A stretch of DNA of 64,000 bases, taken from contig OZ237745.1 of assembly GCA_965178125.1 (NCBI GenBank), positions 1 through 64,000 of the forward strand, given 5' to 3'. Of the stretch, positions 6,568-57,279 are shown piece after piece. The DNA is from Bilabrum cf. latius (Eukaryota). The position numbers were made by a program, and so were the translations under genes. The notes under the pieces are model-generated. The model searched no databases. It worked only from the letters and a program-made list of their open reading frames with translations, and had not been told where the DNA came from. Positions within the stretch are counted from its first letter, which is position 1. The number at the start of each line of letters is the position of its first letter.

Positions 6568-6601
<34 letters not shown>

Positions 6602-17996: not shown

Positions 17997-18056
17997 ACAA
18001 AAAGTGAAGATGAAAATTTTTTTTCCCCGACCCTGTCCCTGACTTTATATTAGATA

Positions 18057-19235: not shown

Positions 19236-20189
19236 TTACAGCTCCTCTAGATTCCGTGTGGACCCTCTATCCCCCTCCTATTGGCCCCCATCCGCGGCAT
19301 CTGCCGCGGATGGTCCCGCCTGCCGCACCTGCCCATCTTTCTACTCCCCCGAATGCTCAAGGTGCTGCTGCTTGACGGCGTGCCCCAGCACGTGAGGCCG
19401 CAGTAAAAAGGGTACCCCGGGCATGCTCATTCGCCGCACGTTTGCCCTCCACTGCTCCCTGTTCATGATGGTGTGGCCTGTCTCCCGCGTGAGGGTGCAC
19501 CCGTCCCCCAGCAGCGTCCATAGGCCCAGCGCCTGCACCCCCCGCTGCACTGCCTGCAGCCACTCGCCCTCGCCCTCGCCCTCTTTCGCCGCCAGGACAT
19601 GCTCCAGGAACACAAAAATGCCACCCGGCCGGAGCACCCGGTGTATTTCATTCAGCGCCGCATCCACGCTGGGCACGGAGCACAGCACCAGCGTGGACAC
19701 GACGACATCCACGGACGCATCTTGAACGGAATCGAGGGCCTGCGCGCCCTCTGCTATCAGCATCACGTCGGTCCCTCTCGCCCGCAGCGAGTGGTTCGCA
19801 ATCTGGTCCTCAAGGTCATCATGCATCCACTCGTTGGGCTCAGCCAGTATGAGCTTGCGCGGCGGCGGGAGCAGGGCGTATACAGGGAGGTTGGCTCCAA
19901 GCCCAGGACCGATCTCAAGCACCGTGGCGCCCCCCAATTGGTCACTGTGAGGACTAAGCAGGTTCTGACGTATATCGAGAGATGCCCTCGCGCTTGGAGG
20001 GCCGATGAGCTGCCAGAACTTGTAAAAGGACAGCTGCTGGGCGCCGGGAATCCAAGCAATCGAAGCCACGGCGAGGACTAGGGCAATTGTTATTGCCCCG
20101 AGGAGTCCCGCGCCGTAGCAGGCGCAGCAACGTAAAGAAAAGCAGCGCTTCGAGGGTGTATCCTGCGTTCGGCTCCCAGATTGCGGCAT
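19236..20189 (-). CDS. Class I SAM-dependent methyltransferase, METTL7-like, with N-terminal hydrophobic anchor
   Basis: Motifs VLEIGPGLGAN, SVDVVVSTLVLCSV and EIHRVLRPGG..FLEHV. Reading through TAG at 19341 and 19278 ends the protein ...NLEEL at TAA 19236. Confidence 0.85.
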
Positions 20190-27760: not shown

Positions 27761-30292
27761 TTATTGCTGGCTGTCGGCACCGTTAGCGCTCGCCTGTGCG
27801 CTGCCAGCCCCTATCCCTCTGCCCGCTCCAGCTGACACCATGGCTAGCTCTGCCTGCTTCCACCTCTCCTGCACCAGTCGCTCCAATTCCGCCACGCGAG
27901 CCTCCCTCCTCCTCACAGCCGCTAGCGAGGCCCGGGCCTCTGCAAGCACAGCCCTCGCCGCCTCGTTGTCCACGGCCTCGCTAGGCCCGGCCTGAGGTTT
28001 GCCAAATGAAGAGAGCGACCCAGCAGCGGATCCCGCTCGAGAACCTTGCCCTGCCGCCAGAAGCCCCAGCGCCACAGCTCCATCGACAGCCTTGCCCGCG
28101 CTGTAGGGCAGCGAGGGCAAGGCAGCCTCCTCAGCAGCGGCAGACAGAGCCCCCATGGCGCGCTCTGCCGCCTCCCGTGCGGCTCGCACAACACTCGGCG
28201 GTGCTGCTGCTGTCAGTGCCGCAATGGCGCCTAGCGCAGACCCGTGGGCCTGCCCCGCTTCACCACCCGTTTCAGGCCGTACGCTCGCTGGTGCCCCACC
28301 CAGCGCCAGGAACCTGCCTAGACAGGCCTGCCCGGTCCTAGACCCTTCTGCCCCTGCCCCAGGGGGGCACTCCTTCAGGAGTTGCCTGGATACTGCCTCC
28401 CAGTCCACAGAGGCAGCATCGTTGTCACCCCCTGCCTTACCATCCCCAGCAGAGCGCACGTCGCCAGCACCGCCCCCGCTGACCTGCGCCCCCACCGCCT
28501 CAAGGAGTGCACGGTCCTGCTCCGCAGTCCACAGCCCCCCCATGGACCCGCGCAGAGCATCGCGCACACCGTCCCCACTGGAGGCCCCGGGCGGTGCTTC
28601 CCCTAGCACAGACACGATGCCGACCCTTCTCTCTGCCCCTGCCTGCCCCCGCAAGTGTCCGGGGGCTTGCTGCGACACTCGCGCCTCTGCTGCTGCGAGC
28701 AGTCTGTGCATCTCCCAGGCCCCTCGAGAAGGCCCGCTGTCTCCCGCTACCCCTTGAAGCAGCGCTCCCTGCTGCAGCACCACGGGCGCTATCCTCACGG
28801 TGCTGCCAGCATCGCCGACCTCTTGCACGGACAGCTGCCGAGCCCTGCCCACCTCAATCCGTTGCAAGCTGACAGAGCTGTTGGACTGCCCACTCGTGTC
28901 GGCACCATCGCCATTGCTGCTGCTGCTGCTGCTGCCGCCACCACTGGTTGAGCTCGCGGACTTGCTAGAACCAGAGGCAAATGCCACGGGCCCACCTGCC
29001 ACTCCCTCGCTCTGCACCCCCAGCCCGGCGTCCAGTGATGTGCCGGGCAGCGGCGCGATCACTCGCACCGGCCAGTGGGTAGCCGGGGGATGTCCCCCTG
29101 GCACGGGCCTCGACTGCGGAACCACGTTGTAGTTGATCACGCCCCACCTCTCGAGGAAGCGGTGCAGCCGGATCACGAAAGCCGCGTCTGCTACAAGCGC
29201 CCTGCGAGCCGAGGTGGCCGTCAGATACCTGCCCGGGTGCTGTCTGTAGGCCGACACCATCCAGTCGCGGCAAGCCACGTATTTTTCCGGCGTGCGGCTG
29301 GCGCTGGATGAGTCGAACCACCGAGGGAAGGTTCGTCGCTCCATGCCGTGAATTCCCCTGGGCCGGTACCAGGCCGCGCAGGCAGGCATGCTGGCGGGGT
29401 GTGACGAGGGCATGGCAGCAGCTGCGCCTGCCGTGGGACCCCCTCGGCTGCTGGGAGTGGGAGCTGCGCCGGATGCCCCCGGCTGTGCGAGCAGGTTAGA
29501 GGCCCGGGCCAGGGCTGCCAGGTCGGGCGCTACGAGCACGCTGGCCTGCTGTGCGACCGCTGCCTTGGCATGGGCCATCACGTGCAGGCTCTGCGTGTCC
29601 AATCGAGCCCGCTGCTGCGCCTGGTCCGTCTGAAGACGCCCCACCTCTTCTGCCGCCCGCGCCACGCTAGTGGCCTGGTCAGTGGCCAGGCGAGCCGCCT
29701 CGATGGCCGCCAGGGCCTGCTCCGCGCTGGGGTTGGCGTGCGGCAGGGCTGCCGCGATATCCTTGGCTGCATCTGCTTGCTCCCCTTCGAGCTCTCGCTT
29801 TGCCACTTCTAAGGCGCGCTGCCGCTCCTTCTCCCGCTTCGTCTGCTTCTTGCCACCGCCGGCACCCTGGGCGTTTGCGCCTGCACCTGCACCGTTCGAG
29901 CCAGCAGATTTCCCCTTTCCTTGACCCCCCCCTTTCTTCCCGCCAATGGTGGATCCTTTCGGATTCGGTGAGGTTTTCCGTTTCAGCTGTGATGCCCCCC
30001 CGGTACCTCCCGCGCTACGCCCACGCTTCTTGGCTTGTGCCTAGCTCGGCTGCATCTCATGCTAGTCTTGCGAGCGGGGCCTCTTCAATCCGGCATGAGT
30101 CGTTGTCTATGGAGCATGTTGCTGCTAAATGTACGGACCAGTACTAAATTTGACTCGCATAGGTTGCGCAGGGCCAGCAGACTGGCCAGATGAATCTGCC
30201 CTTGAGGCCATTGGTGCACTGCTCCCGCCAAATGTAATCTTGATCCGTGGCACCCCCTAATTCCCATTAGAACCACTATTTCCTTGCGCCAT
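27761..30292 (-). CDS. SWI3/SMARCC-like SWIRM + SANT chromatin-remodelling subunit, ~843 aa
   Basis: SWIRM (WYRPRGIHGMERRTFPRWF..TPEKYVACRD..YLTATSARR..RLHRFLERWGVINY) and SANT (WTAEQDRALLEAV..WEAVS..RTGQACLGRF). The N-terminus extends through 5 TAGs to ATG 30292; ends TAA. Confidence 0.85.
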
Positions 30293-38627: not shown

Positions 38628-38668
38628 GGCTGGGAAGGACGTGTACACTATAATAATCCATGTGACTC

Positions 38669-40411
38669 TTAACGGGGCTGACTCCCGGGGGATGCACCAG
38701 CAGCCCTACCTGGCGGTAGCGAGGCTGCTACCTTCTGGCTGTAGATCTAGGACCTGCCAGTGCCCGGGCTGCTGCCACCATCCTGCGGGGCTCTGGTTTT
38801 GCCTGGCTGCGACGCAGCACTCGCAGGTGTGGGCCGTCTGGCAGCAAGCACGGACCTTCTCGCCGTCCTGTCTGCCCTTGCCCTCGCGGTGCAGCACCCG
38901 CACGGCCCTGCCCCGCTCTGTTGCGGGCTCATGGAGCCCGAGCCATCCGAGGAGCCCTCTGTCGGCACATTGGCCTATTCGTTCTCCAGGGAACAAGACA
39001 GGTCCAGGGCCACGAACTTGCACCACCTGGCCATCGATCGAGCCGCCGACCCCTCCGGCTCCGCAGGTATCTGGTCATGCCCGGGCCCGGGGCAAGGGCA
39101 AGCGCATGCCCCGCACGCCTCCCTGCCATAGCACCAGAGGAAGCAGCAGCAGCATAGCCAGCACTGTCTGGGCGCAGGGGGGATGCGGGCGGGTGGCAGC
39201 CCCGCCCTCAGGTCATGGCTCCCGTCGAACTGCCAGAGGTCGTCCGCTGGACCCCCGGCCCGACTGATGGAGGAGGCACCCTTTACCTCCACCTCGAAGC
39301 GAGCCAGCTGCTGCAGGAACCCCGTGTTGGGCTTGATCACGTACCGGCGCTGCCTCACGAACCGGATCGCGTCCCTGAGCCACATGCGCTCCCTGCACAC
39401 GAGGTAGGCCAGCACCAGAGTGGCCGATCTCGAGACTCCCGCCACACAATGCACGAGCACCCGCCCCCCAGTGCTGCGGGCGTGGTCGATGGTGGCGAAG
39501 GCCTGCTCGAACACTGGCCGGATGTCCTGCTTGCGGGAGTCCTCTAGCTTCAGCTTGAGGTAGTGCATGTGCTGGGGAAAGCTGTTGGGCAGCTGCCTCG
39601 CCGCATTGATCACGTGTGTCACCCCCCTCTACAAGAGCATGTCGAGGTCGGCCGCGTCCTCCCGGTCACCCAGCAGCAGCCAGTCCGTGATGCAAGAGGG
39701 ACGCTCGAAGCCGTCCATCCACTCCTGAAAGGATTGAGACAGCCACGAGCAGCAGGAGGGCTGCGGCCGGATCCGCCGCCTCTGCTTGCCGCCAGTGGGT
39801 GCCTCCAGGCCGGGGGGCCAGGCTCCCGGGGCCAGCGGGGGCAGGCGCACTGGTGCGATCCTGCTGCCCGCGCTTGCGCCTGGGTTTGGGGATGTGGAGC
39901 GGGCGGGGCTGAATCTGTCCTGCGGGCGGATCCTTGGCGCCAACGCTTGGGCCTGTACCTGTGCTTGTCCCAGTACCGGACCCTGTCCCAGCCCAGAGGC
40001 AGGGGTGTCCTCCTGGTTGCGCCTCGCTTGCATCTAGCTGAGGACCCGGCGCACCTGGGCGGAACTCATAGACTATGAACGGTCAATGCTGCTCTGGTGC
40101 GGGACCTGTAATTTTCTTTCAGATCGACTTGCGAACCCGTCCCTCGTGGCCATATGCTAGTAGGCAGCCGCGTGCCACCCCTTTGCAGGCATATTTGGAC
40201 GGGAAGCTGCGGACCCTGTCGCCAACAGCAGCGAGCCACTCTTTGATTGTGAAGACCCTGGTCCGATTCCAATAGGACTTGGATTTCGATTCCCACTCGG
40301 CAACAGGATCAGCGATCCAGTGCGGTGTACTCCGACACTTACAGACCTGGTGTGTGGGTTGCCATCGGGGGCTTGCCCGCTAGCACTACCGAACAAGTCA
40401 CGCTTTTGCAT
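38669..40411 (-). CDS. Dual-specificity protein phosphatase, ~580 aa
   Basis: PSCITDWLLLG..L*RGVTHVINAA..LED..VLVHCVAGVSRSAT..PNTGFLQQL. TAG 39629 lies inside the catalytic domain; 6 TAGs in total; ends TAA 38669. Confidence 0.9.
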
Positions 40412-40788: not shown

Positions 40789-43700
40789 ATGTCTGTTGTA
40801 TTTGAGCTACGCAGAAGAGCTAGTCGAGGTCAATCGATACCCACGGCCAACAGAGCACGCCTGTTTGAGACCGCTTGTGCTGCAGGCCACCCGTCTTTAG
40901 ACAAGTCTGGCCGCGAGCGGGCGGGAAAGGCAGCACAAAGAGTACTATGGGCGATGCAACATATAGATTAGCTGATTTGTGGGGGTAGTCGCTCCCGGGC
41001 TGTACTCAGGGTCTTGAAATCCAGTACGTTCGCCACGTATCCATCCGGAGACCCTGATCAAAGAGGTCCAAGCCCCGAAGCTGTGGCTATGGGGAAATCA
41101 ATTGGCGTCTCTCGGATGGGTGCATGCTTAAATAAACTGGCTGATTTGATTGATTTGCAATTGGTGCCTTTTGGTGCGAGTGGTGCCCAATACAACTCAA
41201 GCGCAATCTCGCCTCTCGGCGAGTGGTTGGGCGTTGCTGCCCCCCCTGGACGAATAAACGCCGGTGCGCCAGTTTCCATGCTTTAGCCGCCTTTAGTTCC
41301 CATTGAGTTGGGGGGCGGATCGCGTGAAGCAGCTGCAACAAGGGTACAAGACTTACGAAAGCGAATCGGAGCTCGCCGCGCCATTGGGCGGCTGTGCTCC
41401 GCCGCGTCGGCTATCCTCACCCTTGTGCGGGAGGGCGCTCTAGCCACCGGCATCCCCGCTAGCATGGTAGATTCCCAGCTGGTCCAGGCCACTCTCCGTC
41501 TGTCCCGCTGGCCGGCCGTACGACCCATCGCCTCCTTGGTGCTAGACACGTGCGTCGCGACCGTGTCCAGCAGCCCGGCACTGCCGCTCAAGCACCTAGC
41601 AGCTGCCATGGCATCTCGGAGGCACGCGCGGTTAGACCAACCAACCAACCAGTGGAGCTCCGCCGGGACCAGAGAACATGCAGCCGTCGGTGCTGCCAGC
41701 GGGCGCGCACGAGCAGGCCCAGGCACGGGGGACCTATCACCACTGGTGCAGGTCCTTCTAGAGGCAGAGACCCGGGGATCATGCGCTGCTGCTGCCGGAC
41801 ACTCGTTGCGGAAGTCGCTAGTGGCGGGCGCGGTCAACGATGGGCTGTGCAGGGCCGATGCTCTCCTACTGGTGGGAGCGGCCAGCTCGCTGTCTCTGGG
41901 CCTGGATAGCCACTCCCACTCTCGCGGAAAAGAGGGCGGCAGCGACGAAGATGAAGACGATAGCACTGGCGAGCGGGCAGCGGATGGAAGACCGGCATCC
42001 GCACTCAGCGGTGCGGACGTGAGCGCCTCGTCCGGGAATCCTCGCGGGGGGCATGCCTCCAGAAACACCATCCGGTCGGCTTACAGCAGCCTCTGGGGCA
42101 GTGGACCCATGATGGCCCGCCTGCTCATGCAGCTGCTGGTAACCTCCCGCGACTGGGACGGGCAGGCGCAGGACTCTGGGTGGGTGCAGCGAAGGGACGG
42201 GTGCTGGCAGGCGCTTGGGGGGGAGGCGCTGCTGGAGCATGTGAGAGACGTGCAGGCAGCGCGAGAGCGCCACAATGCCCCCGATGCAGACCTGGACACG
42301 GAGGACGAGCCAGGAGAAGGCGTAGACCAACATGGCGGGAGGGACGGGCCGAGCTCAGGAGCTGGGCTGGGGGCGGGCGCGGCGCGGGATCGTTTTTCGC
42401 TGCCTGCTGCTCTGAGCGCCGCAGAGGCGGAAACGAACCGCGCCGTTACAATGGGTAGGATAGGGCACGCTGCAAGCGTTAGTAAGGGCGAAGACGATGA
42501 TACGATCACTTCGAGCGCTCACCGTCCAGTCCTCAGCTGCATCGAAGAAAGCGCAAAGTTGGCCCATCCTGAGCGCTCGGACGGACTGGCGGTGCAGGTG
42601 GAGCCATGGAGGTACCCAGATAGGGCTGCGGGGATTTCTGGCAAGGCAGCCCCCCGCCCTAGAGCCTGCGCGCTGCCTGGTGTTCTCTGGCCCCTGGCCG
42701 GTTTCAGTGCGCTGCGACACGAGGACCCCAATGCAGCACTGGCTGAAGTGCTGCGCCGGAGGGGCACTTGGATGCAGGACGGCGTGGCTTGGAAGGCCTC
42801 GGGCCCTGGGCTGGCTCGGCGCATCCGACAGTGCATGGTTGCTATGAACCATTTCTGCCATCGGGAGTTTTAGCAGAACGGGGTGACGCTTGCTGCCAGT
42901 GTAGACATGCTGCGAGGCACCATGCATCGCAACATGAGCGCGTTGACGGAGACGGACCAGAGCCGGTTAGAGAGCATGATGGAAGAGGACGACTTGGAGG
43001 CAACTCGCAGGCGGAGGCGTGCTGACGGTGGGGCAACCGGGCTAGGGGACTGGATGGGCCTCTCAAGCGCAGAGGCCGACTCGGACGATTCTTGCTATGA
43101 GGATGCTGTGCCCTCCCAGCCAATGGGCACTCACGAGCGCGACGACGAGATCGATGCATTGGTACAGGAAGATACAATCGGGCCTGCAGATGGAACTGAG
43201 CCTATATCATCGGGCAAACCTGCCGGAAAGAGCACCAAAGGTACGGCAAAGCAGGTATCGTCTGAACCCGGTGCTATTGGTCACGACGGGGTTCCACCGA
43301 TTGGAGCATAGATTGAGGCAGTATCAAGCCGGCAGCTCGCCAGCATGACGCGCAGGCTCCGGCGAGAGGCAAGCCGTGCACGCCGCGAGATTGTCACGGA
43401 GTCTCTGCAGAGAATGGGCTTCGAGATGGATGCAGCCATGGGGATTAGTGCCCCGTGGCTGCTGGACCAGTACCTCACTGCGTGCGTGGTGTCAACCAAT
43501 GCAGCACGCATGGTGTCATCCGCGCTGGCCTTTGCAGGGGAGGGGGCGCGCAGTCTGGTCATCCGGCGATGGAACCCTTCGGGCAGGCCCTCTGCGAGTT
43601 CAGCAACGGACGGCGCAGGCAATGTTGATGGTAGATCGCCTGAACAGCACGGTGCAGCCTACGACTCAGTTTCTATCAGGCGCTCAGCAAGCTCGTGGCT

Positions 43701-46700
43701 GGTACGGCTCAGCCGCCAGCCTCAATGGGAACGTCGATTGACGGGACGCCTGCATGCCCGTATGTGTGCCAAGTAGGCCGTATCCGGTCCCGTGGCGCAT
43801 CTCGCTGCGGCCGGCGCAGACTCCGATTTTGGCGAAGGCTTCATCCGTGCGCGACTGGAGCCGCTCGGGGACGCCGTTTTTGCGACTGCCTCGGTGCACG
43901 AGCCAGCCAGCGAGCCGCAGTAGCATGACCAGACGCCAGACGGCGAGTCTGCCGAAGGGATAGGCAGTCGGCCGGGTAGGTCAAGAGTTGGTCTTCTGCA
44001 TGCGATTTGCCCTGGCATGCGCCCGTCATGTGCCCGTGTGCAGACGCGAGAGAACGTACAAGCAGTGCGGCTACTCGCTCAAGTAGGGGCAGAGGCAGCA
44101 GGAGGAACTGCCCGCGGCAATATGGCTCTGAACGCGTCATTCTGCGAGTCGCTTGGTGTGACCACGCCCCAGGTTGCTGAGCAGCTCTTTGGCCTGGCTC
44201 GGTCAACGGCCACTGAGGACGCAGAAGGGCAAGCATGGGATCGCATGCCTGCACCAGCTGAAGTTCTCGAGCACATGGCACAAGTCTGCGAGCAGGTGGG
44301 CGCGGCCGGCGTCGTGCGCATGGCGCTAGCTTCTCACATCCGCGTTGCACCTTCAAACGAGACTGTGGCGCTCCAAGACCAAGAGGTCCGCGATGCGGTG
44401 CAGCAGGTGCTGGCATCCTCAGCTGCTGGTCGAGTATTTGACAAGAAAGCTGAGGGTATCACTGGCAGCTGCCCACCGGTTGCAACGTCCAGTCAGGAGG
44501 AGTATGAAGACTTGTCCAGGCCGGAGCGCGTCTTGATCGATCGCCTCGACTACGACAATGCGTCCGACACTGCGGCCATTGGGAGCGGCATGTTTGTCGC
44601 AGATACAGTTGGCCAACGCGGCCTGGGCATGCACACATCCTAGCTGTGCCACCCGCTCGCTCGCCACCTGCAAGATCTCGCTGGCGGCGACCCCACATGT
44701 GGAGGCCTGCCTGCAGACATGGACGGGGAGGAGAGCCCAGAGCAGATGCTGGAGCGATCCAATCAGATATTGGGCACCACACACGAGCTCGTGTCAGCAT
44801 ACGCAGATATCGGAGCGGGCCCGGCCATGTTTGCGGAGAGTGTGGTCCCTGGGATGGAGGGCAGCCCAGCCGCCACCCGGCGAGTGAGAGCGGCGATGAT
44901 GCAGGTGGGCAACACGGCAGCCCTGCATTTGGGCTCTATGCAGAGGAATAGCGTGCTGCTGAACTCGTTCCAATCATCGTCCTCCCTCCTGAGCCAGCTC
45001 CTCGGATGTGACGCTGGAACTACCGTGCGAGAGCAGTTCATTCGTTCTGGCGGTCTTGCGATTCTGAGGGCCAGGATGCTGTCCACTGTGTGGGTGCACG
45101 CAGCCCCGCTTCGCTTCTCGCGCTTGCACGGAGGAGGATGCACCTGCACGCCGGGCTCCTCGAATCGAATCGGACTGCTACGGGTACTGCTGGCCGCCAT
45201 CGGTAGAGATGAGCCGCTCTCCGGGTGGATCGGCTGGCGGTGCAGGGCGGCGGGCTGCAGCAGGCTGGAGCTGGCTGGGATGGCCTGGATGGAGCGAAGG
45301 GCAGTTGAGAGCGGGCTGCAAGGTGAGCTGCAGGGCGCACGTGTCGAATCAGCTGGAGCCGCTACGAGTGGCACATCCGAGCAGGCGGACTTTGCATCGG
45401 AGCCTGACGACATCCTGTGGTCTGTCTAGTCACAGATGTCTCCACTGCCGCTGGCGTGCGGACCTGGGTCCAACTACCCGCCTTCGGTGCTACCCACTCG
45501 CATGGAGCTACACGCAGCACGATCAGCTATCGGCGAGGGGAGTGCCAGGCGGGCCCACGTGGTGTCGACACCGACCATCCTCGCAGCCGAGGCCACCCGT
45601 CAGGTCAAGCTGCATGGAGACAAGGGTCACGAGTCGGCGTCCGGTGGCAGTTCCTGGACACAAGCAGCCGAAACCGTGGAGTCCGCAGTCAGGAAGCTTG
45701 CCCCCGGAGCTCGCATGCTGCCCACAACGGCAGAGCTGAGCGGTGTAGTCCCCGTCCGAGAGCAGCCTGACCTGCCTGGACTCGCGCTCAAAGCGGTGCG
45801 AGCTGAAGGCGCCCGCTGGTGGGACGCCTAGAGCGACGAGACTTTTGCCGCCCCCGCAGAAGGCAACCTGCTCGACGCGGTCTCTCTGCGCAGGCCTTAG
45901 TAGGAGGGTGCTGGCGGCGAGGATGCGCGCCCCGCTTCTGGAGCCGTGCACCGTGACTACGCCACCGTGAATGCAGTGGCACTGTCAGAGCCTGTACTTC
46001 ATGAGCCCATGAGCGATTCCGTGGCTGCTTGTGTGGGTCTGCTACACGCTGCAGTACAGGACAGGAGCGCAGACAGCGCGGCGGCCTTGCTGGATTTACT
46101 GCAACCGTGGTCTGGGCCTGCAGTACGCACCGCAGACACCGCATCGTTTGCTGCCAAGTTCATTTCACACACAGCAGGAGTAGATGACAGCTCGCAAGGG
46201 GCCATAGGGAGCATCGCTGGATCAGTTGCCACTGCTGATACTCTTGATGACTCGGGCTCATTGAATGAAGCTATGGATGTCCTGTTGGCTGAGGCATGGC
46301 TTCCTGATGCTGCCTTTGTGCCCCGTCGCGTGAATGGCGTGATGGGCACCCCGTTGTTTGATCCCGCCCTTACGAAGCTTACTAAGCGGCACGGCAAATC
46401 ATATCCAAAGCCACTCGAGCAAAGCAGCCTGCGGGACTCGGCAGACTTTGCACGAGCTCGCAGGATGGGTCGACGGGCGCTGATGCACCTCGCAACGGCA
46501 GACAGGGTGCACCCGAGGACCGGTTCAGTGAGGACTGAGAGGGACTGGCTCGTGTCGCGGGTCGGTCTTGCGGAGATCGTCTCCGGTCCAATGCACACTG
46601 CAGGCGAGGATGACGCCCCTCGGGAATACGACGTGCGGCGGGACATAGTGCTTCGGATGGAGGGTGACGATCTCGGATGGGAAGAGCTGCGTGGGAGTGG

Positions 46701-48663
46701 AGACTTCTCGCTGTGTCGCGCTGTAGCAGCTGCTGCTAGGAAGCTTGGGCGCGAGTCTGAGGGTGGGGCGGCCACTGGATCGATCCCAACCCCAAGCACC
46801 GTGCAAGAGCTGCCACTTGAAGGCGAGGCGCACGTGCTGGCGGTAACGACAGGGCTGCCTGCTTGGGACGTGGCATCTCCGTGGATGCGTCCCCCCACGC
46901 CGTGCTTTGTGCATACCGCAAGCAAGCTCGCGAAATCAGCGAGTGCTGACAGCGCTGACTCGCTGGAAGCCAGGCTCCCGATATCGGCCTAGTGGTAGGA
47001 GGAGGCCGGGTATCTGCCTGCACATGCTGGCACAGGGCTGTGCCGAGCTGTGGTGGAGATGTATATGCATTGCAACCGTGGCAGCAGATACGGTTCGTGG
47101 GCCGCGAGCTCCCTCATGGCCACGGTGAGGGGGTCCCCATGGAGCTTCAGAGTCATGTGCATCCGGGCGGGGCTGGTCGGGCAGCTGGTGGGGGACATCC
47201 TCGAAATCGGCCTGTGGGATGCAGCTCACTCGTACCAGCTGCACAAGTACGAGGGCGGGGCTGCGGGTGGTACCTTGCCCGATGCGACTGCCAGGGCGGA
47301 CCCCGGGTCAAGCGAACAGGGCGGCTCTACTACGGAAGGGGAGGGGCTACGAGCAGCCGCCCCTGAGCCCAGCGTGCTCACGCCAGGACTGCCGCTGTAG
47401 ACATGGGGCATGGTCGTGCATCCCGCTGTCCTTGTGCCCCAGCCACCCCGCCTACCCCGCCGGTGCCGCCCTGTGATGCCTTTGCAGGTGACCATGGACT
47501 CTCTGGCAGCTCTGGTGGACTAGAACCCGCTAGGGCTCGCATGCCTGGGGCACCCCGCCTTCTTGCCCAGGCCCCGCCTCCGTGCCCTGCTGAGAATCGC
47601 GCTAGCCAAGCCAGTGGACTCGAACAAGGTCTTGCGAAACTTGTGGAAGTGCGCGTGGGACGCGCACTGCGATCAGGTGCAGCGGGGAAGTGCGCCGGGC
47701 GGTGAGCGGTGCATGGCTGTGTGGCGTTTGCCAGCCGTGCGGATGATGTCATCACGGTGGCTGGAGGTATTCGTGAGGCTGGTGTACTCCATCCCCGTGC
47801 CCCGCCAACTGGACACCTTCTCGGTGTCGTGCTTCAACTCTGCGCTCATGATGGCCGGCGCGGCTCTGCACGACCTGAGCGACGAGACTGCGGGCAGCAG
47901 GGAGGCGGGCTCGTGGGTGCGAGGAGAGGCTTGGAAGCACGGGAACGTGTCGATGGTCAGGCGGTTCGTCCGGTGTCTGGCGCAGTGGGATTTGCCTGCC
48001 GCGGAGAGGGTCTCGGTCGGGCAAGGGCAAGGGGAAGAGGGCGAGGACAAGCCCGTGGCAGATTGGATCAAGGAGACCCTGCGGACCGAGGACGTGGAGG
48101 CCAGGCGATAGAGGGGCAAGGACAGGCCACAGCAGGGAAGCAGCGGTCCCGCCCCCGCGCTAGACTCCCGCACCCCGGAGGACTGGGAGAGTCGCCAGGA
48201 GCACTGGAGCTTCTTCTCCATGTGTCCCAGCGGGGAGGAGGTAGACAGCAAGACCAGGTTCCCCTTCAAAGGACACGTCAACTGCATGTCGGTCCGCCCT
48301 ATCTCCGATACCGAGTGGCAAGAACATCCGGTCGGACCGCCTTGGAGGCACCTGCAGGAGCCCTCGCCCGAGAGTAGGTGGTCCGTGGGATGTGGCCGGC
48401 CTGTGCCCCTTGGAGCGCGGGCCTTGGCTCACCTGTGCCGGCTGTCGAACGCATGGCTCAAGTTCTATACCATGCGAGTGAGCATGCGGCAGGACATGGC
48501 CCAGTCGTGCGGGGTGGGTTTCGGCCACATGCGGTGCATCCTGGATGCCTTGCTGGCTCTGGGCAGGGAGTCGCTCGAGGACATGGGCCTGGGCGGCTGG
48601 ATGGACGCGAGGCACGGCGAGGAGGCGGGTCCTGCGAGTGCAGGCGCCGAGGCAGGAAAGTGA
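40789..48663 (+). CDS. Giant unrecognised protein of ~2,600 aa; possible upstream exon 40593-40666 with intron 40667-40787
   Basis: Twelve track ORFs share one frame. 16 TAGs, including TAG TAG at 45898-45903, and no TAA/TGA over ~7.9 kb; ends TGA 48661. Confidence 0.8.
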
Positions 48664-48837: not shown

Positions 48838-51800
48838 TCACGACCCGCCGCCCGACGCCGCCGCCTTCTTAGCAGCCGCAGCCCTCCGCTTGGCCTTGAT
48901 GTCGTCCAGCTTGCTGGGGTCTGCCAGCTCCCACATCTCAAGCATGACCTCCACCTTCTGCGCCGCAGTCTTGTAGATATGCTGGAAGGCCGGCTTGCTC
49001 AACGCGATGATAGCCATCCGGCTCATGGCCTCGATGAACGCGGGCTCAGGCAGCCGCCGCTTCTTATCGCCCTCGTCACCGCCAGAGGACCCCAGGTGCA
49101 AGTTGGCAGCCGCGTTGAATGCCACGCGCACCTCCCTGGACTTGGTGAAAGTGGGCACCACGTGGAAGTCCTTCATCATGCGGGCGAACTGCTGCAGGCT
49201 CACCCCGCCCTTGCCCGCCGAGTAGTACTCGAACAGCCCGTGCACTGCTTCTCCATGCTTCTCGAAGAGCGCCATCACCGCTGGGTCGAACACCCCCGTG
49301 GCCTGGCCCTCAGAGGCCTCCAGCGCCCTCTCCGCGTTCTCGCCCGCCTGTGCCGCGCTCCTGGCCTCGTTGTCCGTGTACACGCTCTTGGAGCCCTTGC
49401 CCCCGCCCGCGCCTGCGTGCGGCACCCCCACCACCGTGGCAGGCCGGCCCCCTTTGCTCGGCCCCGCCCCCGTGCGGTCGTGGTCCTTGAGCGCCTCCTG
49501 GCTCAGCCCCCCGCCCGCGGCCTGCTGCGCATCCGCCTGCAGGGAGGCGATGCGCCTGTGAGTATCATCCGGCAGCCCGGGCACGTGCGCGCCGGCCTCG
49601 GCGAGCGCCTTCCGCTGGGCATCCAGAGTCTTGGCCATCTGCGCGATGGTGGTGGACTCCTCCTCCAGGTGTCTCCCCAGCTGCCGCACCCGCTCAAACT
49701 GCTCCTGCAGCTCCTTGCGCTCACGGGCCAGCTCGGCGCGGTCCGCCTCAAGCTGCTCCCGCTCGGCGCTCAGCTGTTCCCTGTCCTCCTGCACCTTGGC
49801 CTGCAGCCGCATGGCCTCCTCACGCAGCGCAGACGCGTCGTCCCTGTCCTGCCGGGCAGCCTGGGCGTCTGCGCGCGCAGCCTCGGCCTCCGCCTCGGGC
49901 CCGGGTCCTGAGGGTGCAGTCCCCTCGCCCGCCCTGGGCGGGCCTTTGCCCATATCGGCGCCCCCACTGGACGGTGGGGCGGGCGGCGGCGGCGGGCGCT
50001 GCTTGGGCAGCCCCGGGGCGGCCGGCCCTGCCTGCACCTGCCTCTGCTACCTCGAGTACCCCGAGTCCTGGATGAACTTCTGCAGGGCCTCAGGGCCCCC
50101 AGTGCTCAGTGCCTGCGAGAGCTCCTGCAGCTGCCCGCAGGTGAGGCTGCTCCTGGACCAGACGGAGCCCCCCGGTCCTCCCTGGTCGAGCGTGATGATG
50201 GGCTCGAAGGGTGACCCCAACAGTGGGCGGCCGTAGGGGCGCTGCTCGTCGATCGAGATGTGCGCGTACCTCGGGTCGATGAGGTTCACGTGCAGCTCCA
50301 GCCGAGGGATGGTCTCTGCCTCGGCCCGGGAGAGTTCCTCATGCTGCAGGTCCACCTCGTACTTGACCTCGTAGGTCCCGTCCCCCAGGTCCACCACCGG
50401 GTAGGCCCTCCCAGGGCCGTGCACCTCCAGCTCCCAGCGGTCCCCCCCCGTGCCGTAGAGCTCGTCGAACTGATTGCGGGCCGTGATGCGGAAAGTGTTG
50501 ACCTTACCCACGCATGCCAGCCGCGTGCCCGCTCCCTCCACGAGGCAGTGCAGCGGGGCGGTGGGGGCGGGGTTCACCGTCACCAGGAAGGGGCTCCCCT
50601 GGATGTGTCGCTTGTAGGCCTTGATGTGCAGCTCGTACTCTCCCTCCCTAGACGGAGTGTACTGCCCCATGAAGGACCCGTTGCCCAGGTACTCCAGCGG
50701 CACCGGCAGCTGCAGCTCATCGCTGTCCAGGAAGGCCTCCATCACCTCGGGGTCGGCACTGCTCGGGTCGGGGATCCCGCGGTCGTCTCGCACCTCCACC
50801 GTGAACTCCGTCTCCACGCCCCGCTCCGCCTCCGAAATGCCCTGCCCGTAGGCCACGTGCTGCAGGGCCAGGGTGGTTGCAACCGCATCCATGTCCAGCT
50901 GGCCCCCGTCCTCGCCCTGCATCCCCTCACCGTGCTCCCCGCCCTCGCCCTCCCCTTCTATCGGCAGCTTGCCCCCGCTGTCGATGATGGCCTACTCCAC
51001 GCGGCGCCTCTCATCCTCCACCTGCCCCCACCTGCGATGCACGTCCTGCATGCGCTCCACCACCATGTTGATGGCCTACACCCACACGTCCGCGCCTGCA
51101 TCCGTGTCAGTCGCCAGCTGCACCTCGTCGTGGCCATTCTCGTCGATGACGGTGAAGATAGACTTGATGCGGGCGTCCGAGTGTCTCCCCAATTCCTCCA
51201 CGCGCGCGCTGTGGGCGTGCGTCAGATGGATCCGGAGCAGCTCCTAGCCCATGCGCTCCGCCGAAGGGACCAGCACGAGCTCGCACGCGCTCTCGGAAAA
51301 GGCGAGCGCGCGCTCCTCCCAACGGCGAAACGTCATGAAGCCGCCGCCAGAATTTTCTTTTCGAAGGACTGCTCCGATCTAAATAGGCAGCGTGTCCATG
51401 TCAATCTCCGGCTGCCTCGGGCCATCCTTGTCCCCGTACGGATTGGTCGGCAAGGCCTGCCCTGCACCGCCGCCCCCTGCCTGCTCGCCGAACGCACCAG
51501 CTCGCTATTCCAATTCTTCTTGTTGCTTGTCGAATCGATCCGCAGTGTCATGCACCGCAAAATTCATCTGGTCTAGCATATTGCGCAAGTGGCGGATGTT
51601 GTCGGCTTTCCGCATGTCCTTGATGGGGATGCCACGCTTATCGAGCACAGGCCGCCTACCACCAATCACCTGGCCATATCCAGATCCATCCATAGGCCCG
51701 CTTCCGTCCATGCCTCCGCCGTAGCCCTGTCCTGGGGCAGGAGATCCATCGTAGCCTGCCCCGTACTGGCCGCCACCGTACCCACCGCCCCTTGGCGGGG

Positions 51801-51873
51801 GACTTCCCATATCGGGATCTTGCCCAGGTGGTTGCACATCGCTATACCCAGACATATCGCTCTAGTAGGCCAT
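48838..51873 (-). CDS. PH + two filamin/Ig-like repeats + coiled-coil + degenerate EF-hand-like protein, ~1,010 aa
   Basis: PH-like VLRKE..RRWEER..DVWV*AINMV; filamin-like YLGNGSF..YTP..GEY..IQGSPFLVTV and DLGDGTYEVKY; C-terminal SLQQFARMMKDF..FIEAMSRMA. 7 TAGs; TGA. Confidence 0.8.
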
Positions 51874-52171: not shown

Positions 52172-53022
52172 ATGGCAGATCTATGGAAGTACATTCCTTT
52201 TATTGGATCATAGGAAGAGGATGAACTGAAAGATGTGCCAAAGGTAGATGTGAATGACCCGGCAGCATCAAAGCGAGCTATTGACGAGGCTATTGTCGCA
52301 GTGAGGTGCCCATTTCCCGCTTGCAGGTAAACAAATATCGCTTTTTCATTAAGTTGCTGCGGGAACGATCTATCTGATTTGGCACCAATGGCTTGTCTGC
52401 GTGGGTGAATGCGATGGATATCTGTGAATCTCGACAGTCACCGCAGATCATGACCAACGCATTTGGCCTCAAGGAAAACCACACGGTATTCTATGGTAGA
52501 TTAGCAATTATGGGCGCTGCAACGGTATGCGGCTTGGCTGGGCAATTTTGGCCGGATGCAACGTGGCAGCCGATGGCACCGGTGACTGACAATAGCGTGC
52601 GCTTCGCTGTCATCTGTTGTGTTGCAGCTTATTATGTCGTTTCTGGACTATTGCAGCTATATGCTTGGTTTGTGGAAGGCAATTTGATCGCTGATTTCGG
52701 CCAGCTTGATGTACCGGCGGTGGCGGCCGGCGAGCACTCGGTTGTAGTGCCTGCCGTTCGCGTAGACAGCGCTTGGAAGGACAGGCTAGATCCAGAGCTG
52801 CAGATTGCAGTGAAGTGGCTCGGTACAGGTAGTAAGGATGGCAGAGGTCCGCAGTCTAGGGAGTGGAAGGGTCACTACTCTCAGTTCCTGACCAAGGACG
52901 GCATCGTCGTGGTCTCGGCCCTGCGAGGCACCCTGGAGACTCTCTTCGAGGACGTGCCGGGAATGGAAGAGGCAGCCAAGGCGGTGGAGGATGGGCGTAT
53001 CGAAATCGAGCAGGATGATTGA
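52172..53022 (+). CDS. SPCS2: Signal peptidase complex subunit 2; intron 52301-52446
   Basis: KVDVND..KRAIDEA|..KENH..GRL, two TM segments, CVAAYYVVSGLLQLY..EGN and FLTKDG. One TAG; TGA. Confidence 0.8.
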
Positions 53023-53193: not shown

Positions 53194-55681
53194 TCACGCC
53201 TGCACGTCCATCGTCCCCTTGATTCGGATGTCACCCGAGGATGCTCCCACGAGCACCCCGAACGAGCCCCCGATGAGCTTCCACTGGCCCGCACCAGTGT
53301 CCCAGATGCTGCAGTCGCGGGCCGCGATGCTCACGGTCACCGTGGTGGACTCGCCCGCTCCCAGGTACACCTTGTCGAATCCACGCATGACCTTGGGCGG
53401 CTCGCCAGCAGACGAGGGGAAGGCCAGGTACACCTGGGGGGCGTCCCCCCCTGCACGCGACCCCGTGTTGGAGACATCGAAGCTGATCTGCGCCGTGCCG
53501 CTGGCCGACACCTGCCCCTTCACCTCGAGCTTCGAGTAGGAGAAGGTCGTGTAGGACAGGCCGTGTCCGAACGGGAACAGGGGCTTGATGTTCTTCGCAT
53601 CGAACCAGCGGTACCCCATCTCCAGCTCCTCGGTGTACACCTGCTGGATGGCCTGGTTCCCTGGGTACTGCGCAGTAGACTGGATCCACGTGTCCGTCTC
53701 CTTGACCGGAAAGGACAGCGGCAGGCGAGCCCCTCCGTTCACGTCCCCGAACAGCACGTCGGCCAGTGCGTTGCCCGCCTCCTGCCCGGGCATGAAGCTG
53801 GCGATGATGTTCTTGGCATCGTCGGCCCAGGGCATGAGCACCGCCCCCGGGGACCGCACCACCACCACGGTCTTGGCGGCGGCCGACTGCAGCACCATCT
53901 GCACCAGGGCGTCCTGTCCACCGGGCAGGGAGAGGTTCGGCCTGTCTGAACCCTCCGAGGACGTCACTGCCACCACCACCACGGCCACGTCAGCGGCTGC
54001 TGCGGCTGCAGCTGCGGCTGACGGGTCCTTCCCGTCGTAGTAGGTCACGTTCACTGCCTCGTCGTAGGGTGCGCACGTGCCGCTGGTGAGGCCCTGGTGG
54101 GCCTGCCTGCCGCTGTTGTCGGGCTTGATCCAGCACGTGGAGGGCGGCTGGAAGGTGAAGGCGTTGCAGTCCGGGCGGGCCGTGCACTGGGCGCAGCAGT
54201 CCGCGGGCCCCGTCGACTGCACGGAGGGATTGCCCGGCTGGAAGAAGTCCGTGTTGTTCACAAAGGTGCAGTTCAGAGGGCGGGGGCCGTTGGCGCGCGC
54301 CGCAATTCCGTCCGCTGGTGTGACGATGTAAGGTGTGCGCACCCCCCCGGACCCCCCGCCGTGCACAGAGTTCTGGTCCCCGATGACGGCGATGGACTTG
54401 ATGCCCTGGGCCTTGACGTCCAGCGGCAACAGGGAGGAATCCACCTTGAGAAGCACGTGCGAGTTGGCGCTGAGGTTCCTGGCGAGCTGGCTGTGCTCCT
54501 TTGACATCACGTTGGAGCTCAGGTTGCCGGTGGGCACGTCCGTGAACAGGTTGTACACGAGCATGGGGGTCAGGATCCGCTCGATCATGTCGTCCAAGCG
54601 GCTCTCGGGCACCTGCCCAGACTGCACCGCGCTCTTCAGCTTGTCTCCGAAGAAAGAATCGTCAGGCATCTGCTGGTCGAGGCCGTTGATCGCGGCCTGC
54701 ACCGTGCTGTGCGTGGCGCCCCAGTCGCTCTGCACATAGCCCTCGAAGCCGAGGCCACCGCTCGACTCGGGCGTCTTGAGGTGGGGCAGGGTGATGTTGT
54801 TCTCGCACGCGTACTCGCCCGTGACCATCTAGAAGGGCTGCTCTTTCTGCACGGACACGCGGTTGTACGAGCACATCACCACGCCGGACCCGGCGTCTAT
54901 GCCGCCGCGGAAAGCCCAGTAGTACAGCTCGTGCATGGCGCGCTCAGAGACGATCTCGGTGACCTGGTGCCGCTGGAACTCCCCGTTATTCGCCACCCAG
55001 TGCTTGGTGCACGCGAGGATGTTGTTGCTCTGGATGCCCTCCACTTCGGCGTACATCATGCCGTAGCAAAGCACGGGGTCCTCGCCGCAGCTCTCGAAGG
55101 ACCTGCCGTCCTGTGGGACCCGGGCCATGTTCACCATGGGACCCAGCCTGCGCAAAGCACGGATACAGACAAACAAAGAAACAATGCAAATTTCAAATTA
55201 CTTTCGTATACAAATAACTTGAAGCACACCATGACACCACTTGCGTTTTAGACATCACTGACGCAACGGACCTAACTTACATCACATTCGTGCCTTTCCC
55301 ACGCTGCTCCTTGCCCATGGCCTGGCCGTAGGTTTTCATCATTTCAGGATCAAACGTGGACACCACCGTCATGGCGCTCGGCCAGGCCGTGACATCAGAA
55401 ACGCCGTCCGCGACGCCTTGTGGCCCGTCCTCATAGCTCAGTCGGGGGATATTTAGGCGAGAAATGGGCGGAACACCACCGACATAGCCATCATAGCCCT
55501 TCAGCGCATCTGATTCTTCGTCCTATTGCTATGGCCAGCCGTGAACAAGCTGGATTTTCTCGTCGACAGTCATCTCGGCAAGTAGATCTTTCGCTTTTTG
55601 CTTCGCACTAGCGGGCCATGACGATCCAGCGAAAGCAGAAGCAGCAAGAATAGCAGGGATGATAGCAAGGATGGATTTCAT
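53194..55681 (-). CDS. Secreted GH3 beta-glucosidase with an inserted PAN/Apple-like module and C-terminal Fn3-like domain; intron 55148-55280
   Basis: Signal peptide, MTVDEKI, DGPQGV, GRSFESCGEDP, KHW, MCSYNRV, VQSDWGATHST, PGQEAGNALADVLFG and PLFPFGHGLSYTTF. TAG at 55529, 55523 and 54829; TGA. Confidence 0.95.
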
Positions 55682-55923: not shown

Positions 55924-56782
55924 TCAGGCATGTGTGAGATCGTCGTCGAAGTACAAGTGGATGGTCGGCAGGTGATCTGGAGCCTCCGGATCCATCCCAA
56001 GCGCCGCCATTTCCTCTGCGTCATCCTCTAGCCCGTTCCCGTGCAGGGTCTTGGAGAGGTCCAGTGGCCTGAACTCGAGCCTGTCCTCCGAGGGGGCGCC
56101 CGAAGCGGCGTCCCCTGCGCGACCCGGCGCACCCCCTTGCCTCGATTCATCGGGGACAGGGAGCAGCGCCTTCCACGTGTAGCTCTTGGCGTGCGCGTTC
56201 CACTCCACGAACCTGTCCCTGAGCGCACCGACTGTCTCCTCGCTCGCACTCTCCACGATGTGCCTGTCCCCTGTCAACGTGTTCACGATCAGTATCTTGC
56301 GCGTGCGGCGACTCACCCTTCCCACGACCCTAGATTCGTCTTTCCACCACGGCTGTCCGAAGTCAGTCCGCCACGAGCTGAGCGGCAGCGTCGGCGGCAC
56401 GTGCACGAACCTTCCCTCCGGCAAGTAGTACCCGGGCAGGGCCGTAGCCGGGTCCACGCGAGACCTTAAATCCTTAGTATCGGTGTCGAACCAATGAGAA
56501 ACGTCGTCTCCGGCCCTTGCTAGCATGGGCTCAGCGAGGGACCCTGCAGATTCACCAACAAGGTCAGTCACGTTCACAACCCTGCCAAACAGGACGAGCC
56601 AACAGTCCTGCGATCATTGACATTGGAAGACACTTATTGTAGCACGGATTCCGCGCCGATCGATAGCCGATTCACGCCACCATTTTGAGGAACCTCACGT
56701 TTTGCTGATTGTGCTGGGCTACTTCCTCGAACGTATAGAACCTGCTAGCTGCATCTCCACCACTAGGGTCAGCAGAAGCCAT
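55924..56782 (-). CDS. CYB5D1: Cytochrome b5 domain-containing protein 1 (flagellar); intron 56608-56698
   Basis: RFYTFEEVAQHNQQN|DCWL, AGDDVSHWFD, PEGRFVHVPP, PWWKD, WNAHAKSYTWK and PTIHLYFDDDLT; TGA. Confidence 0.9.
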
Positions 56783-56946: not shown

Positions 56947-57279
56947 ATGGCTGCATCAGTTAGTGTAGAAATGGTTGTGGCAGGGGACGGGGCTCGATAT
57001 CCCGCGGAATCGAACGTTGTGCACATTCATTACGTTGCGGCACGTGAAGATGGCGAATCGTTTGATAGCACCCGTGACCGTGGCAGGCCATTCAGTTTTC
57101 GAATAGGGGAGGAGCAAGTGATTACAGGCCTGGAAGAAGCGGTCAAGCAGATGTCTCTTGGCGAGCGCGTATCAGCAACCATTCCTGCGTCTCTAGCGTA
57201 CGGCTCTCGCGGCTTTCCAGGAAAGGTTCCGCCGAATATGGGTCTAGTATTTGACATAGAGCTTTTGTCAATCCAGTAA
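56947..57279 (+). CDS. FKBP12: FKBP12-type peptidyl-prolyl isomerase, 110 aa
   Basis: VHIHY..FDSTRDRGRPFSF.IG..QVITGLEE..MSLGER..LAYG.RG.PG.VPPN..LVFDIELLSIQ, then TAA at the expected family C-terminus. Confidence 0.95.
   Translation: MAASVSVEMVVAGDGARYPAESNVVHIHYVAAREDGESFDSTRDRGRPFSFRIGEEQVITGLEEAVKQMSLGERVSATIPASLAYGSRGFPGKVPPNMGLVFDIELLSIQ

What the first reader, a model, noticed from the sequence alone, without database searches (positions are those of the whole stretch)
56947..57279. UAA remains a stop, so UAA and UAG are decoupled
Seen: FKBP12 ends FDIELLSIQ-TAA at the normal family length of 110 aa. TAA also ends the genes at 7498, 19236, 27761 and 38669. I found no in-frame TAA in any reconstructed exon. 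The other 19 genes end in TGA, and none needs TAG as its stop. Known: most nuclear Gln reassignments (table 6) change UAA and UAG together. Inference: this requires a CUA-specific tRNA and an eRF1 that reads UAA and UGA but rejects UAG.
Basis: partly seen in the sequence, partly recalled or inferred. Interest (0 to 1): 0.85.

Follow-up and report, generated by a model that had tools for sequence, protein, structure and literature searches.

The report
UAA stops, UAG codes: split code
In this stretch of a GC-rich protist genome the codon TAG is read as an amino acid while TAA and TGA still end genes, a rare but already described kind of genetic code, apparently in an organism where it has not been reported.

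Summary
The FKBP12 gene (56947-57279) ends at TAA exactly where solved FKBP12 chains end. Four other reading frames end at TAA at the stated coordinates. In 20 frames (13,896 codons) I counted 83 in-frame TAG, 0 TAA and 0 TGA. About 23 internal TAA would be expected if TAA followed TAG as CAA follows CAG. Of the 23 genes I could delimit, 18 end in TGA, 5 in TAA and none needs TAG.

Contigs from RNA-like runs that lack three introns carry the TAG codons unchanged, so neither editing nor splicing removes them.

The code here is therefore UAG = sense, UAA and UGA = stop. Glutamine is the best candidate for UAG, but the support is thin: two informative alignment columns.

The tRNA and eRF1 inference could not be tested. 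No genome is held and the window has no tRNA gene.

The split is not new. It has been described for Iotanema, a rhizarian, Scotinosphaera and several ciliates. This organism is GC-rich, ends most genes in TGA and carries TTAGGG-type repeats, which fits none of them well. I rate it a probable new member of a known kind.

The parts
56947..57279 (+). FKBP12-type peptidyl-prolyl isomerase gene, 110 codons plus a TAA stop at 57277-57279
   Evidence: Translation. Pfam FKBP_C E 2e-28. End-to-end match to 107-residue FKBP12 chains, nothing matched after the TAA.
5936..7498 (+). 520-codon frame of unknown family with 3 in-frame TAG, ending at TAA 7496-7498
   Evidence: Codon-usage score 0.37 before the TAA and -0.2 after it; next in-frame TGA is 17 codons on.
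19236..20189 (-). Class I methyltransferase gene (317 codons, 2 TAG in the tail) ending at TAA 19236-19238
   Evidence: Pfam Methyltransf_11 E 6e-14. Stop checked. Coding signal beyond the TAA is ambiguous.
27761..30292 (-). SWIRM-domain (SWI3-like) gene, 843 codons, 5 TAG, ending at TAA 27761-27763
   Evidence: Pfam SWIRM E 3e-19. 1518 library proteins match with E up to 0.001; all 150 listed best stretches fall within query residues 65-600, mostly about 290-420. Score 0.40 before the TAA and -0.28 after it.
38669..40411 (-). Dual-specificity phosphatase gene, 580 codons, 6 TAG (one inside the catalytic domain), ending at TAA 38669-38671
   Evidence: Pfam DSPc E 3e-34. Stop checked. It converges on a TGA-ended gene with 41 bases between the two stops.
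40789..48663 (+). 2624-codon frame with 16 in-frame TAG, no TAA or TGA, ending at TGA
   Evidence: A frame this long cannot stay open by chance: TAA plus TGA make up about 1.8% of off-frame codons.
48838..51873 (-). PH-like/filamin-repeat gene, 1011 codons, 7 in-frame TAG (first bases 51864, 51507, 51381, 51246, 51078, 50994, 50049), ending at TGA
   Evidence: Pfam Filamin. Relatives P0002-P0004. Contigs of runs X6 and X7 cover 6 of the 7 TAG with no differing letter, and X5 covers all 7.
53194..55681 (-). GH3 beta-glucosidase gene with one intron (55147-55279) and 3 in-frame TAG (55531, 55525 and one in exon 2), ending at TGA
   Evidence: PDB and Pfam matches. Spliced contigs in X5, X6 and X7. 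Spliced reading.
55924..56782 (-). CYB5D1-like gene with one intron (56607-56697), ending at TGA
   Evidence: Atlas nearest clusters score 0.95-0.96. Spliced contigs in X6 and X7. Reading.
52172..53022 (+). Small, highly covered gene with one GT..AG intron (52301-52446), one TAG at 52211-52213, ending at TGA
   Evidence: Spliced contigs in X5, X6 and X7. Reading.

Best explanation
The window is nuclear DNA of a GC-rich, gene-dense eukaryote whose cytoplasmic translation reads UAG as an amino acid and still ends at UAA and UGA.

Shown here: UAG stands in frame in nearly all longer genes and is kept in the mRNA. UAA and UGA never stand in frame. UAA closes 5 of 23 genes, one of them exactly at the end of a conserved family.

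Inferred, not shown: UAG is decoded by a tRNA with anticodon CUA, which pairs with UAG but not UAA, most likely a glutamine tRNA derived from tRNA-Gln(CUG). Also inferred is that release by eRF1 at UAG is weakened or outcompeted, while recognition of UAA and UGA is retained.

My odds: UAA = stop and UAG = sense, about 0.9. Gln as the meaning of UAG, about 0.7.
For: - Codon counts in 13,896 codons of 20 frames: TAG 83, TAA 0, TGA 0. Shifted frames hold TAA 25 and 35.
- 22.8 internal TAA are expected if TAA:TAG followed CAA:CAG, P = 1.3e-10. The upper 95% bound for in-frame TAA is 3.6% of the TAG rate.
- FKBP12 ends at TAA at the family end.
- All five TAA lie in the last 3-22% of their TGA-bounded frames, product 1.3e-5. 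Coding score falls after 4 of 5.
- TAG is spread along genes: 27, 18, 11, 12 and 11 per fifth of gene length, n = 79. None lies within 13 codons of a gene end.
- Contigs of runs X5-X7 lack three GT..AG introns that the DNA run X1 keeps. They carry the TAG codons with no differing letter.
- For Gln: the N-terminal motif MAY-X-S/G-D has Q in both relatives that cover it. The TAG column in the phosphatase domain reads Q 8, R 7, K 5, E 2 and five singletons in 27 homologues. Summed BLOSUM62 over 8 columns gives Q 6.9, E 3.5, S 2.9.
- The CUA-tRNA logic and its precedents are set out in PMC5304391 (passages read).
Against: - The frames were delimited by TAA and TGA, so the zero counts are partly built in.
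- Only 64 kb was seen; rare or context-dependent sense UAA elsewhere cannot be excluded.
- For one TAA gene (methyltransferase, 19236) the coding score does not fall clearly after the TAA.
- No orthologue end could be compared for four of the five TAA genes. Searches returned only domain-level matches.
- Gln is weakly supported. In the closest relative (74% identity) the 7 TAG sites read Q, L, K, D, A, E, P. That is 1 of 7 Q, against 20 of 32 for ordinary Gln codons.
- A neighbourhood-composition test gave no signal for Gln.
- No tRNA, eRF1, peptide or ribosome-footprint evidence was available.
Confidence: 0.85

Rival explanations
1. The split is real, but UAG encodes an amino acid other than glutamine (Glu, Ser, Lys or Leu), as in the rhizarian exLh (Leu), Scotinosphaera (Ser) or the ciliate PL0344 (Glu).
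For: In the closest relative, 6 of 7 TAG sites are not Q. E and S rank second and third in the summed column scores. UAG-only reassignment to Leu and Ser is in print.
Against: The only two informative columns both favour Q. Leu scores -12. No residue other than Q recurs across columns.
Confidence: 0.2
2. UAA has a dual, context-dependent meaning: mostly stop and rarely sense, as reported for UAA in Blastocrithidia and for all three stops in Condylostoma. The window is too small to show the sense use.
For: Only 13,896 codons were examined. Codes of this kind exist (abstracts listed).
Against: 0 in-frame TAA against 83 TAG and 22.8 expected. TGA is also never in frame, unlike those codes. The five TAA all sit at frame ends.
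Confidence: 0.05
3. UAG has no dedicated tRNA. It is read through by near-cognate tRNAs because eRF1 recognises it poorly, which gives a mixed residue at TAG sites.
For: TAG sites are unusually poorly conserved: 1 of 7 identical against 20 of 32 for CAR Gln, P = 0.013. In the relative, 4 of the 7 residues (Q, L, K, E) have codons one base away from TAG.
Against: One protein and n = 7. TAG makes up 0.6% of codons, reaches 16 in a single frame and occurs inside a catalytic domain. That load would be costly without efficient decoding. Every documented UAG reassignment I read about is attributed to a cognate tRNA.
Confidence: 0.05
4. Artefact: the TAG-bearing frames are pseudogenes or assembly errors, or the TAG is removed by RNA editing or splicing, so the code is standard.
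For: None found.
Against: Frames of up to 2624 codons with Pfam domains remain open apart from TAG. Contigs from three further runs of two further coded studies agree letter for letter. The spliced contigs keep the TAG codons.
Confidence: 0.01

Closest known systems
Iotanema spirale (Fornicata): UAG = Gln, UAA and UGA = stop (Panek et al. 2017, PMC5304391; passages read)
   Same: Same code table if UAG is Gln here. UAG never terminates, and there is no in-frame UAA or UGA. In both cases close relatives appear to lack the change: E. mutabile for Iotanema (PMC9161772), and here P0002-P0004 and L001, which have no in-frame TAG.
   Different: Iotanema ends genes with UAA 104 and UGA 15. This window has TAA 5 and TGA 18 (Fisher P = 7e-10). 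The window is about 60% GC. The eRF1 change reported for Iotanema (T32G in the GTS motif) could not be checked here.
Rhizarian exLh (Sainouroidea): UAG = Leu, UAA and UGA = stop (PMC5304391)
   Same: UAG-only reassignment with UAA retained as a stop.
   Different: Leu fits the columns here badly (score -12). exLh stops are UAA 56 and UGA 15, against 5 and 18 here (P = 1e-6).
Scotinosphaera sp. (Ulvophyceae): TAG = Ser, TAA and TGA = stop (Li et al. 2021, PMC8271138; passages read)
   Same: UAG-only reassignment outside the ciliates, with TAA and TGA both used as stops.
   Different: Ser ranks third here and is seen in 1 of 27 sequences at the phosphatase column. The window carries a (CCCTAA)n array. 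That green algae use other telomere repeat units is my recollection, not a tool result. No recurrent TGTAA motif follows the stops.
Ciliates with UAG-only reassignment: Protocruzia tuzeti and phyllopharyngean lineages (McGowan et al. 2024, PMC11687900; passages read)
   Same: UAG to Gln (or Leu) with UAA kept as a stop. The explanation is the same: a CUA anticodon does not read UAA.
   Different: That ciliates are AT-rich with nanochromosome or macronuclear architecture is my recollection. This window is about 60% GC, a contig of at least 212 kb holds it in run X1, and it has 91-146-base GT..AG introns.
UAR = Gln codes (NCBI table 6: many ciliates, Dasycladales and other ulvophytes, hexamitin diplomonads, an oxymonad, Amoeboaphelidium; listed in PMC11687900)
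   Same: UAG read as (probably) Gln, and TGA the main stop.
   Different: Here TAA is never in frame and closes 5 genes.

Membership tests
UAG-only stop-to-sense nuclear code (UAA and UGA retained as stops) | In-frame UAG inside bona fide coding sequences | tested here: met
   83 TAG in 13,896 codons of 20 frames, several with Pfam domains. One lies inside the DSPc domain. TAG is present in spliced RNA-run contigs.
UAG-only stop-to-sense nuclear code (UAA and UGA retained as stops) | UAA marks bona fide coding-sequence ends, judged by conservation with homologues | tested here: met
   Shown by conservation for 1 of 5 genes (FKBP12). For the other four only by position and loss of coding score, clear in 3 and ambiguous in 1.
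UAG-only stop-to-sense nuclear code (UAA and UGA retained as stops) | No in-frame UAA or UGA | tested here: met
   0 and 0 in 13,896 codons, and none in three RNA-defined first exons. This covers the window only.
UAG-only stop-to-sense nuclear code (UAA and UGA retained as stops) | UAG never serves as a terminator | tested here: inconclusive
   None of 23 genes needs TAG as its stop, and the last TAG is at least 14 codons from each end. A terminating TAG followed by a short open tail cannot be excluded without orthologue ends or footprints.
UAG-only stop-to-sense nuclear code (UAA and UGA retained as stops) | A tRNA with anticodon CUA, and none with UUA | not testable with these tools
   No tRNA gene and no Rfam match in the window. 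No genome is held.
UAG-only stop-to-sense nuclear code (UAA and UGA retained as stops) | eRF1 N-domain altered at positions that read the third stop-codon base | not testable with these tools
   eRF1 is not in the window. The rest of the assembly could not be searched.
UAG = Gln variant (the code once listed as NCBI table 15) | TAG aligned to conserved Gln in homologues | tested here: inconclusive
   Q in 2 of 2 relatives at one conserved site. Q is the commonest residue (8 of 27) at a second. The other six filamin-gene sites are variable, and two sialidase-domain sites were uninformative.
UAR = Gln code (NCBI table 6) | In-frame TAA as well as TAG, with TGA the only stop | tested here: not met
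   0 in-frame TAA against 22.8 expected, and 5 genes end in TAA.
Codes with no dedicated stop (Condylostoma or Blastocrithidia type) | In-frame TGA (Trp) and in-frame TAA, with termination set by context | tested here: not met
   In-frame TGA 0 (TGG 168) and TAA 0.

The most novel reading that the evidence does not exclude
This is an independent and evolutionarily recent origin of a UAG-only code in a GC-rich, non-ciliate protist that ends most genes in TGA. A relative with 74% protein identity shows no in-frame stop in 629 codons of a gene where this organism has 7 TAG. TAG still sits mainly at poorly constrained sites. The pair would then catch a stop-codon capture close to its start, in a genome where GC pressure rather than AT pressure shaped stop-codon use.
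Probability: 0.35. Interest if true: 0.65.

Novelty: new member of a known kind. Interest (0 to 1): 0.45.

Why it matters
Practical side: any annotation of this genome with the standard code or with table 6 will be wrong. The standard code cuts genes at TAG. Table 6 reads through the TAA that ends about a fifth of the genes delimited here (5 of 23).

Scientific side: nuclear codes in which UAG and UAA differ are few. In the papers I read they are a fornicate, a rhizarian, a green alga and some ciliates. Each further lineage tests whether a CUA-anticodon tRNA plus a subtle eRF1 change is the general route. A GC-rich case in which TGA is the main stop differs from Iotanema and exLh, the two lineages for which I saw stop-codon counts, both of which end genes mainly in UAA. 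Relatives that seem to lack the change could help date the event.

Tried and rejected
Access to the genome and RNA genes
- Whole genome: not held, so the tRNA and eRF1 checks were impossible.
- No tRNA gene and no Rfam family in the window.
- An exact 40-base search and a protein-pattern scan of genome contigs found nothing.
- The metagenome scan gave one distant locus (L001, 33% identity). Its homologous frame is open for 1149 codons under the standard code.

Searches for relatives
- 2624-codon frame: no hit at near lengths.
- Phosphatase: domain-level hits only.
- SWIRM protein: domain-level hits only, plus one 176-residue fragment at 71% identity. The orthologue ends of the TAA genes could therefore not be compared.
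- PDB: no hit for two coiled-coil proteins. The two sialidase-domain TAG columns were uninformative. The GH3 and kinase TAG lie outside aligned blocks.
- A neighbourhood-composition test for the identity of TAG showed only that TAG sits in locally AT-richer coding sequence.

Lineage
- The Atlas gave CYB5D1 clusters, commonest phylum Chordata, which says nothing about this organism's lineage.
- Cluster look-ups carried no organism names.
- No recurrent TGTAA motif follows the stops.

Sequencing runs
- No RNA holder is listed on record. X5-X7 are treated as RNA-like only because their contigs lack three introns.
- The contigs over the FKBP12 stop were not among the pieces listed, so its 3' end was not seen.

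Earlier findings of this scan
- Nothing for this genome or its look-alikes. The word search returned only phage cases.

Literature
- Three full-text searches found no report of a GC-rich non-ciliate organism with this code. Supplements were not seen and subscription journals are not covered.

Full report
WHAT THE WINDOW IS

The 64 kb are about 51-66% GC in 4-kb steps. They hold closely packed long reading frames on both strands. Under the standard code the frames are short. If TAG alone is read as sense, frames of 300 codons or more rise from 29 (13,211 codons) to 55 (29,831 codons). Reading TAA as sense adds almost nothing: 33 frames, 15,058 codons.

Pfam recognises these families: a methyltransferase, a SASA esterase, a SWIRM protein, a WD40 protein, a BNR sialidase, a dual-specificity phosphatase, a filamin-repeat protein, a GH3 glucosidase with a PAN insert, a protein kinase, an LZTFL1-type leucine zipper and FKBP. 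A CYB5D1-like protein was recognised by the Atlas.

No whole genome is held. The window has no tRNA gene and no Rfam match.

THE OBSERVATION

The FKBP12 frame runs from ATG 56947 to TAA 57277-57279, 110 residues. Against PDB sequences, residues 5-109 align to residues 2-106 of 107-residue FKBP12 chains. When I read the TAA through as X, the 22 following codons up to the next TGA matched nothing native. The TAA therefore sits at the family's end.

I could delimit 23 genes: 18 end in TGA, 5 in TAA and none needs TAG.

IS TAA A STOP RATHER THAN A RARE SENSE CODON?

In 13,896 codons of 20 frames, counted from the first ATG, frame 0 holds TAG 83, TAA 0 and TGA 0. The shifted frames hold TAA 25 and 35 and TGA 231 and 247. 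So TAG is as common in frame as out of frame, while TAA and TGA are excluded.

Gln codons are CAA 144 and CAG 524. If TAA tracked TAG as CAA tracks CAG, 22.8 internal TAA would be expected. Poisson P for none is 1.3e-10, and the upper 95% bound is 3.6% of the TAG rate.

These zeros are partly built in, because I delimited frames by TAA and TGA. Three further checks matter.
1. The frames are far too long to be chance: 2624, 1011, 903, 843 and 824 codons from the first ATG, plus a 1791-codon frame that runs off the window's start. Off-frame TAA plus TGA occur at about 1.8% of codons.
2. If only TGA is taken as stop, each of the five TAA falls in the last 3-22% of its frame. The product of these fractions is 1.3e-5. 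No two high-scoring frames are joined through a TAA.
3. The codon-usage score falls after the TAA in 4 of 5 genes. The methyltransferase at 19236 is ambiguous, 0.17 before and 0.12 after.

Upstream of frames bounded by TAA, the sequence holds clusters of TAA and looks non-coding.

IS TAG REALLY IN THE MESSAGE?

I laid contigs of four coded runs on 38600-58599. X1 holds the whole stretch in one piece and may be the source DNA.

X5, X6 and X7 come from two other coded studies. They are identical in sequence but lack three short GT..AG introns: 52301-52446 on the + strand, and 55147-55279 and 56607-56697 on the - strand. I therefore treat them as RNA-derived. The runs are not on record as RNA, and X5 is flagged as probably DNA.

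The spliced GH3 contigs carry all three of its in-frame TAG. Contigs of X6 and X7 cover 6 of the 7 TAG of the filamin-repeat gene, and X5 covers all 7. All show no differing letter. Editing or splicing out of TAG is thus excluded for these genes.

TAG is spread along genes: 27, 18, 11, 12 and 11 per fifth, n = 79. The excess in the first fifth may partly reflect start codons placed too far upstream.

WHAT DOES TAG ENCODE?

This is the weak point.

The filamin-repeat protein has a relative at 74% identity (P0002, 629 residues) and two at 32-43% identity in the alignment. At the 7 TAG sites P0002 reads Q, L, K, D, A, E, P. Only the N-terminal motif MAY-X-S/G-D is conserved, and there both relatives that cover it have Q.

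The one TAG inside the phosphatase domain aligns to Q 8, R 7, K 5, E 2 and five singletons in 27 homologues.

Summed BLOSUM62 scores over these 8 columns rank Q 6.9, E 3.5, S 2.9, A 1.8, K 1.6 and L -12.

Two sialidase columns and a neighbourhood-composition test were uninformative.

I put Gln at about 0.7. Leu is unlikely.

Ordinary Gln codons are conserved in P0002 at 20 of 32 sites, against 1 of 7 for TAG sites (P = 0.013). So TAG sits at poorly constrained positions, at least in this protein.

RELATIVES

P0002 (629 residues), P0003 (872), P0004 (1041) and the metagenome locus L001 (a frame open for 1149 codons) show no in-frame stop under the standard code. This organism has 7 TAG in the stretch aligned to P0002. 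At equal density, the chance of none is 9e-4.

The change may therefore be confined to this lineage, as it is for Iotanema among caviomonads (PMC9161772, passages read).

P0002 stops about 380 residues short of its homologues inside a 3483-base contig. I could not see why.

MECHANISM

Shown: UAG is sense, UAA and UGA are stops, and UAG persists in the mRNA.

Inferred from established knowledge (PMC5304391, passages read): only a CUA anticodon reads UAG without reading UAA. Such a tRNA is one base away from tRNA-Gln(CUG). eRF1 must lose, or lose the competition for, UAG.

The same paper found a T32G change in the GTS motif of Iotanema eRF1. In the rhizarian exLh it found only an L69A-type change outside the conserved motifs. 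An overt eRF1 signature is therefore likely but not obligatory. None of this could be tested here.

COMPARISON WITH WHAT IS KNOWN

Decoupled UAG/UAA nuclear codes are in print for:
- exLh (Leu) and Iotanema (Gln) (PMC5304391);
- Scotinosphaera (Ser) (PMC8271138, passages read);
- Protocruzia and phyllopharyngean ciliates (Gln, Leu), and a ciliate with UAA = Lys and UAG = Glu (PMC11687900, passages read; PMC10553269, search listing and the start of the abstract only).

The present case differs from Iotanema and exLh in stop usage. It has TAA 5 and TGA 18, against 104 and 15 for Iotanema and 56 and 15 for exLh (Fisher P = 7e-10 and 1e-6).

It differs from ciliates in its GC content and in lying on a contig of at least 212 kb in run X1. 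The ciliate side of that comparison is recalled, not tested. It differs from the Ser code in the column evidence. An interstitial (CCCTAA)65 array also points away from green algae and ciliates; the telomere units of those groups are my recollection, not a tool result.

Three full-text searches found no report that fits this organism. Supplements and subscription journals were not covered. I could not name the organism.

VERDICT

It is a known kind of code, probably in a new lineage.

Noticed in passing
window 18056-18447: An interstitial array of about 65 copies of ACCCTA, the TTAGGG-type telomere unit read on the other strand, at 99% match. It may mark an ancestral chromosome-end fusion or an assembly join of two chromosome ends.
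   Followed up: partly
window 12317-17995: Subtelomere-like tandem arrays with units of 167, 155 and 410 bases, 93-99% matches. The 167- and 155-base arrays each occur twice, on either side of the 410-base array.
   Followed up: no
window 7750-11700: A 4-kb satellite with a unit of about 21 bases (higher-order periods 85, 106 and 127) and strong strand asymmetry: GC skew is -0.415 in the 8-12 kb step. It produces long spurious open frames on both strands.
   Followed up: partly
window 48838-51873 (7 TAG sites), against P0002: TAG sites are much less conserved than ordinary Gln codons: 1 of 7 against 20 of 32 identical in a relative at 74% identity (P = 0.013). Four of the seven relative residues (Q, L, K, E) have codons one base away from TAG.
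   Followed up: partly
P0002, relative of the gene at 48838-51873: The closest relative's predicted protein stops at 629 residues inside a 3483-base contig, about 380 residues short of its homologues. The cause could be an in-frame TAG, an intron or a frameshift. Its DNA could not be fetched.
   Followed up: no
window 36390-36460: A 23-base unit that includes the last codons and the TGA stop of the sialidase-like gene is repeated about four times in tandem just after the stop. The read-through frame ends again with the same last eight residues and TGA.
   Followed up: no
window 32204/32237 and 38627/38669: Convergent gene pairs have only 32 and 41 bases between their stop codons, so their 3' untranslated regions must overlap. 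The 3' ends of RNA-like contigs lie 7-119 bases past the stops of three other genes.
   Followed up: no
window 53194-55681: The GH3 beta-glucosidase carries a PAN/Apple-type insert of about 60 residues between its two catalytic domains (weak Pfam PAN_4 and PAN_1 hits, below the curated cut-off for PAN_4).
   Followed up: no
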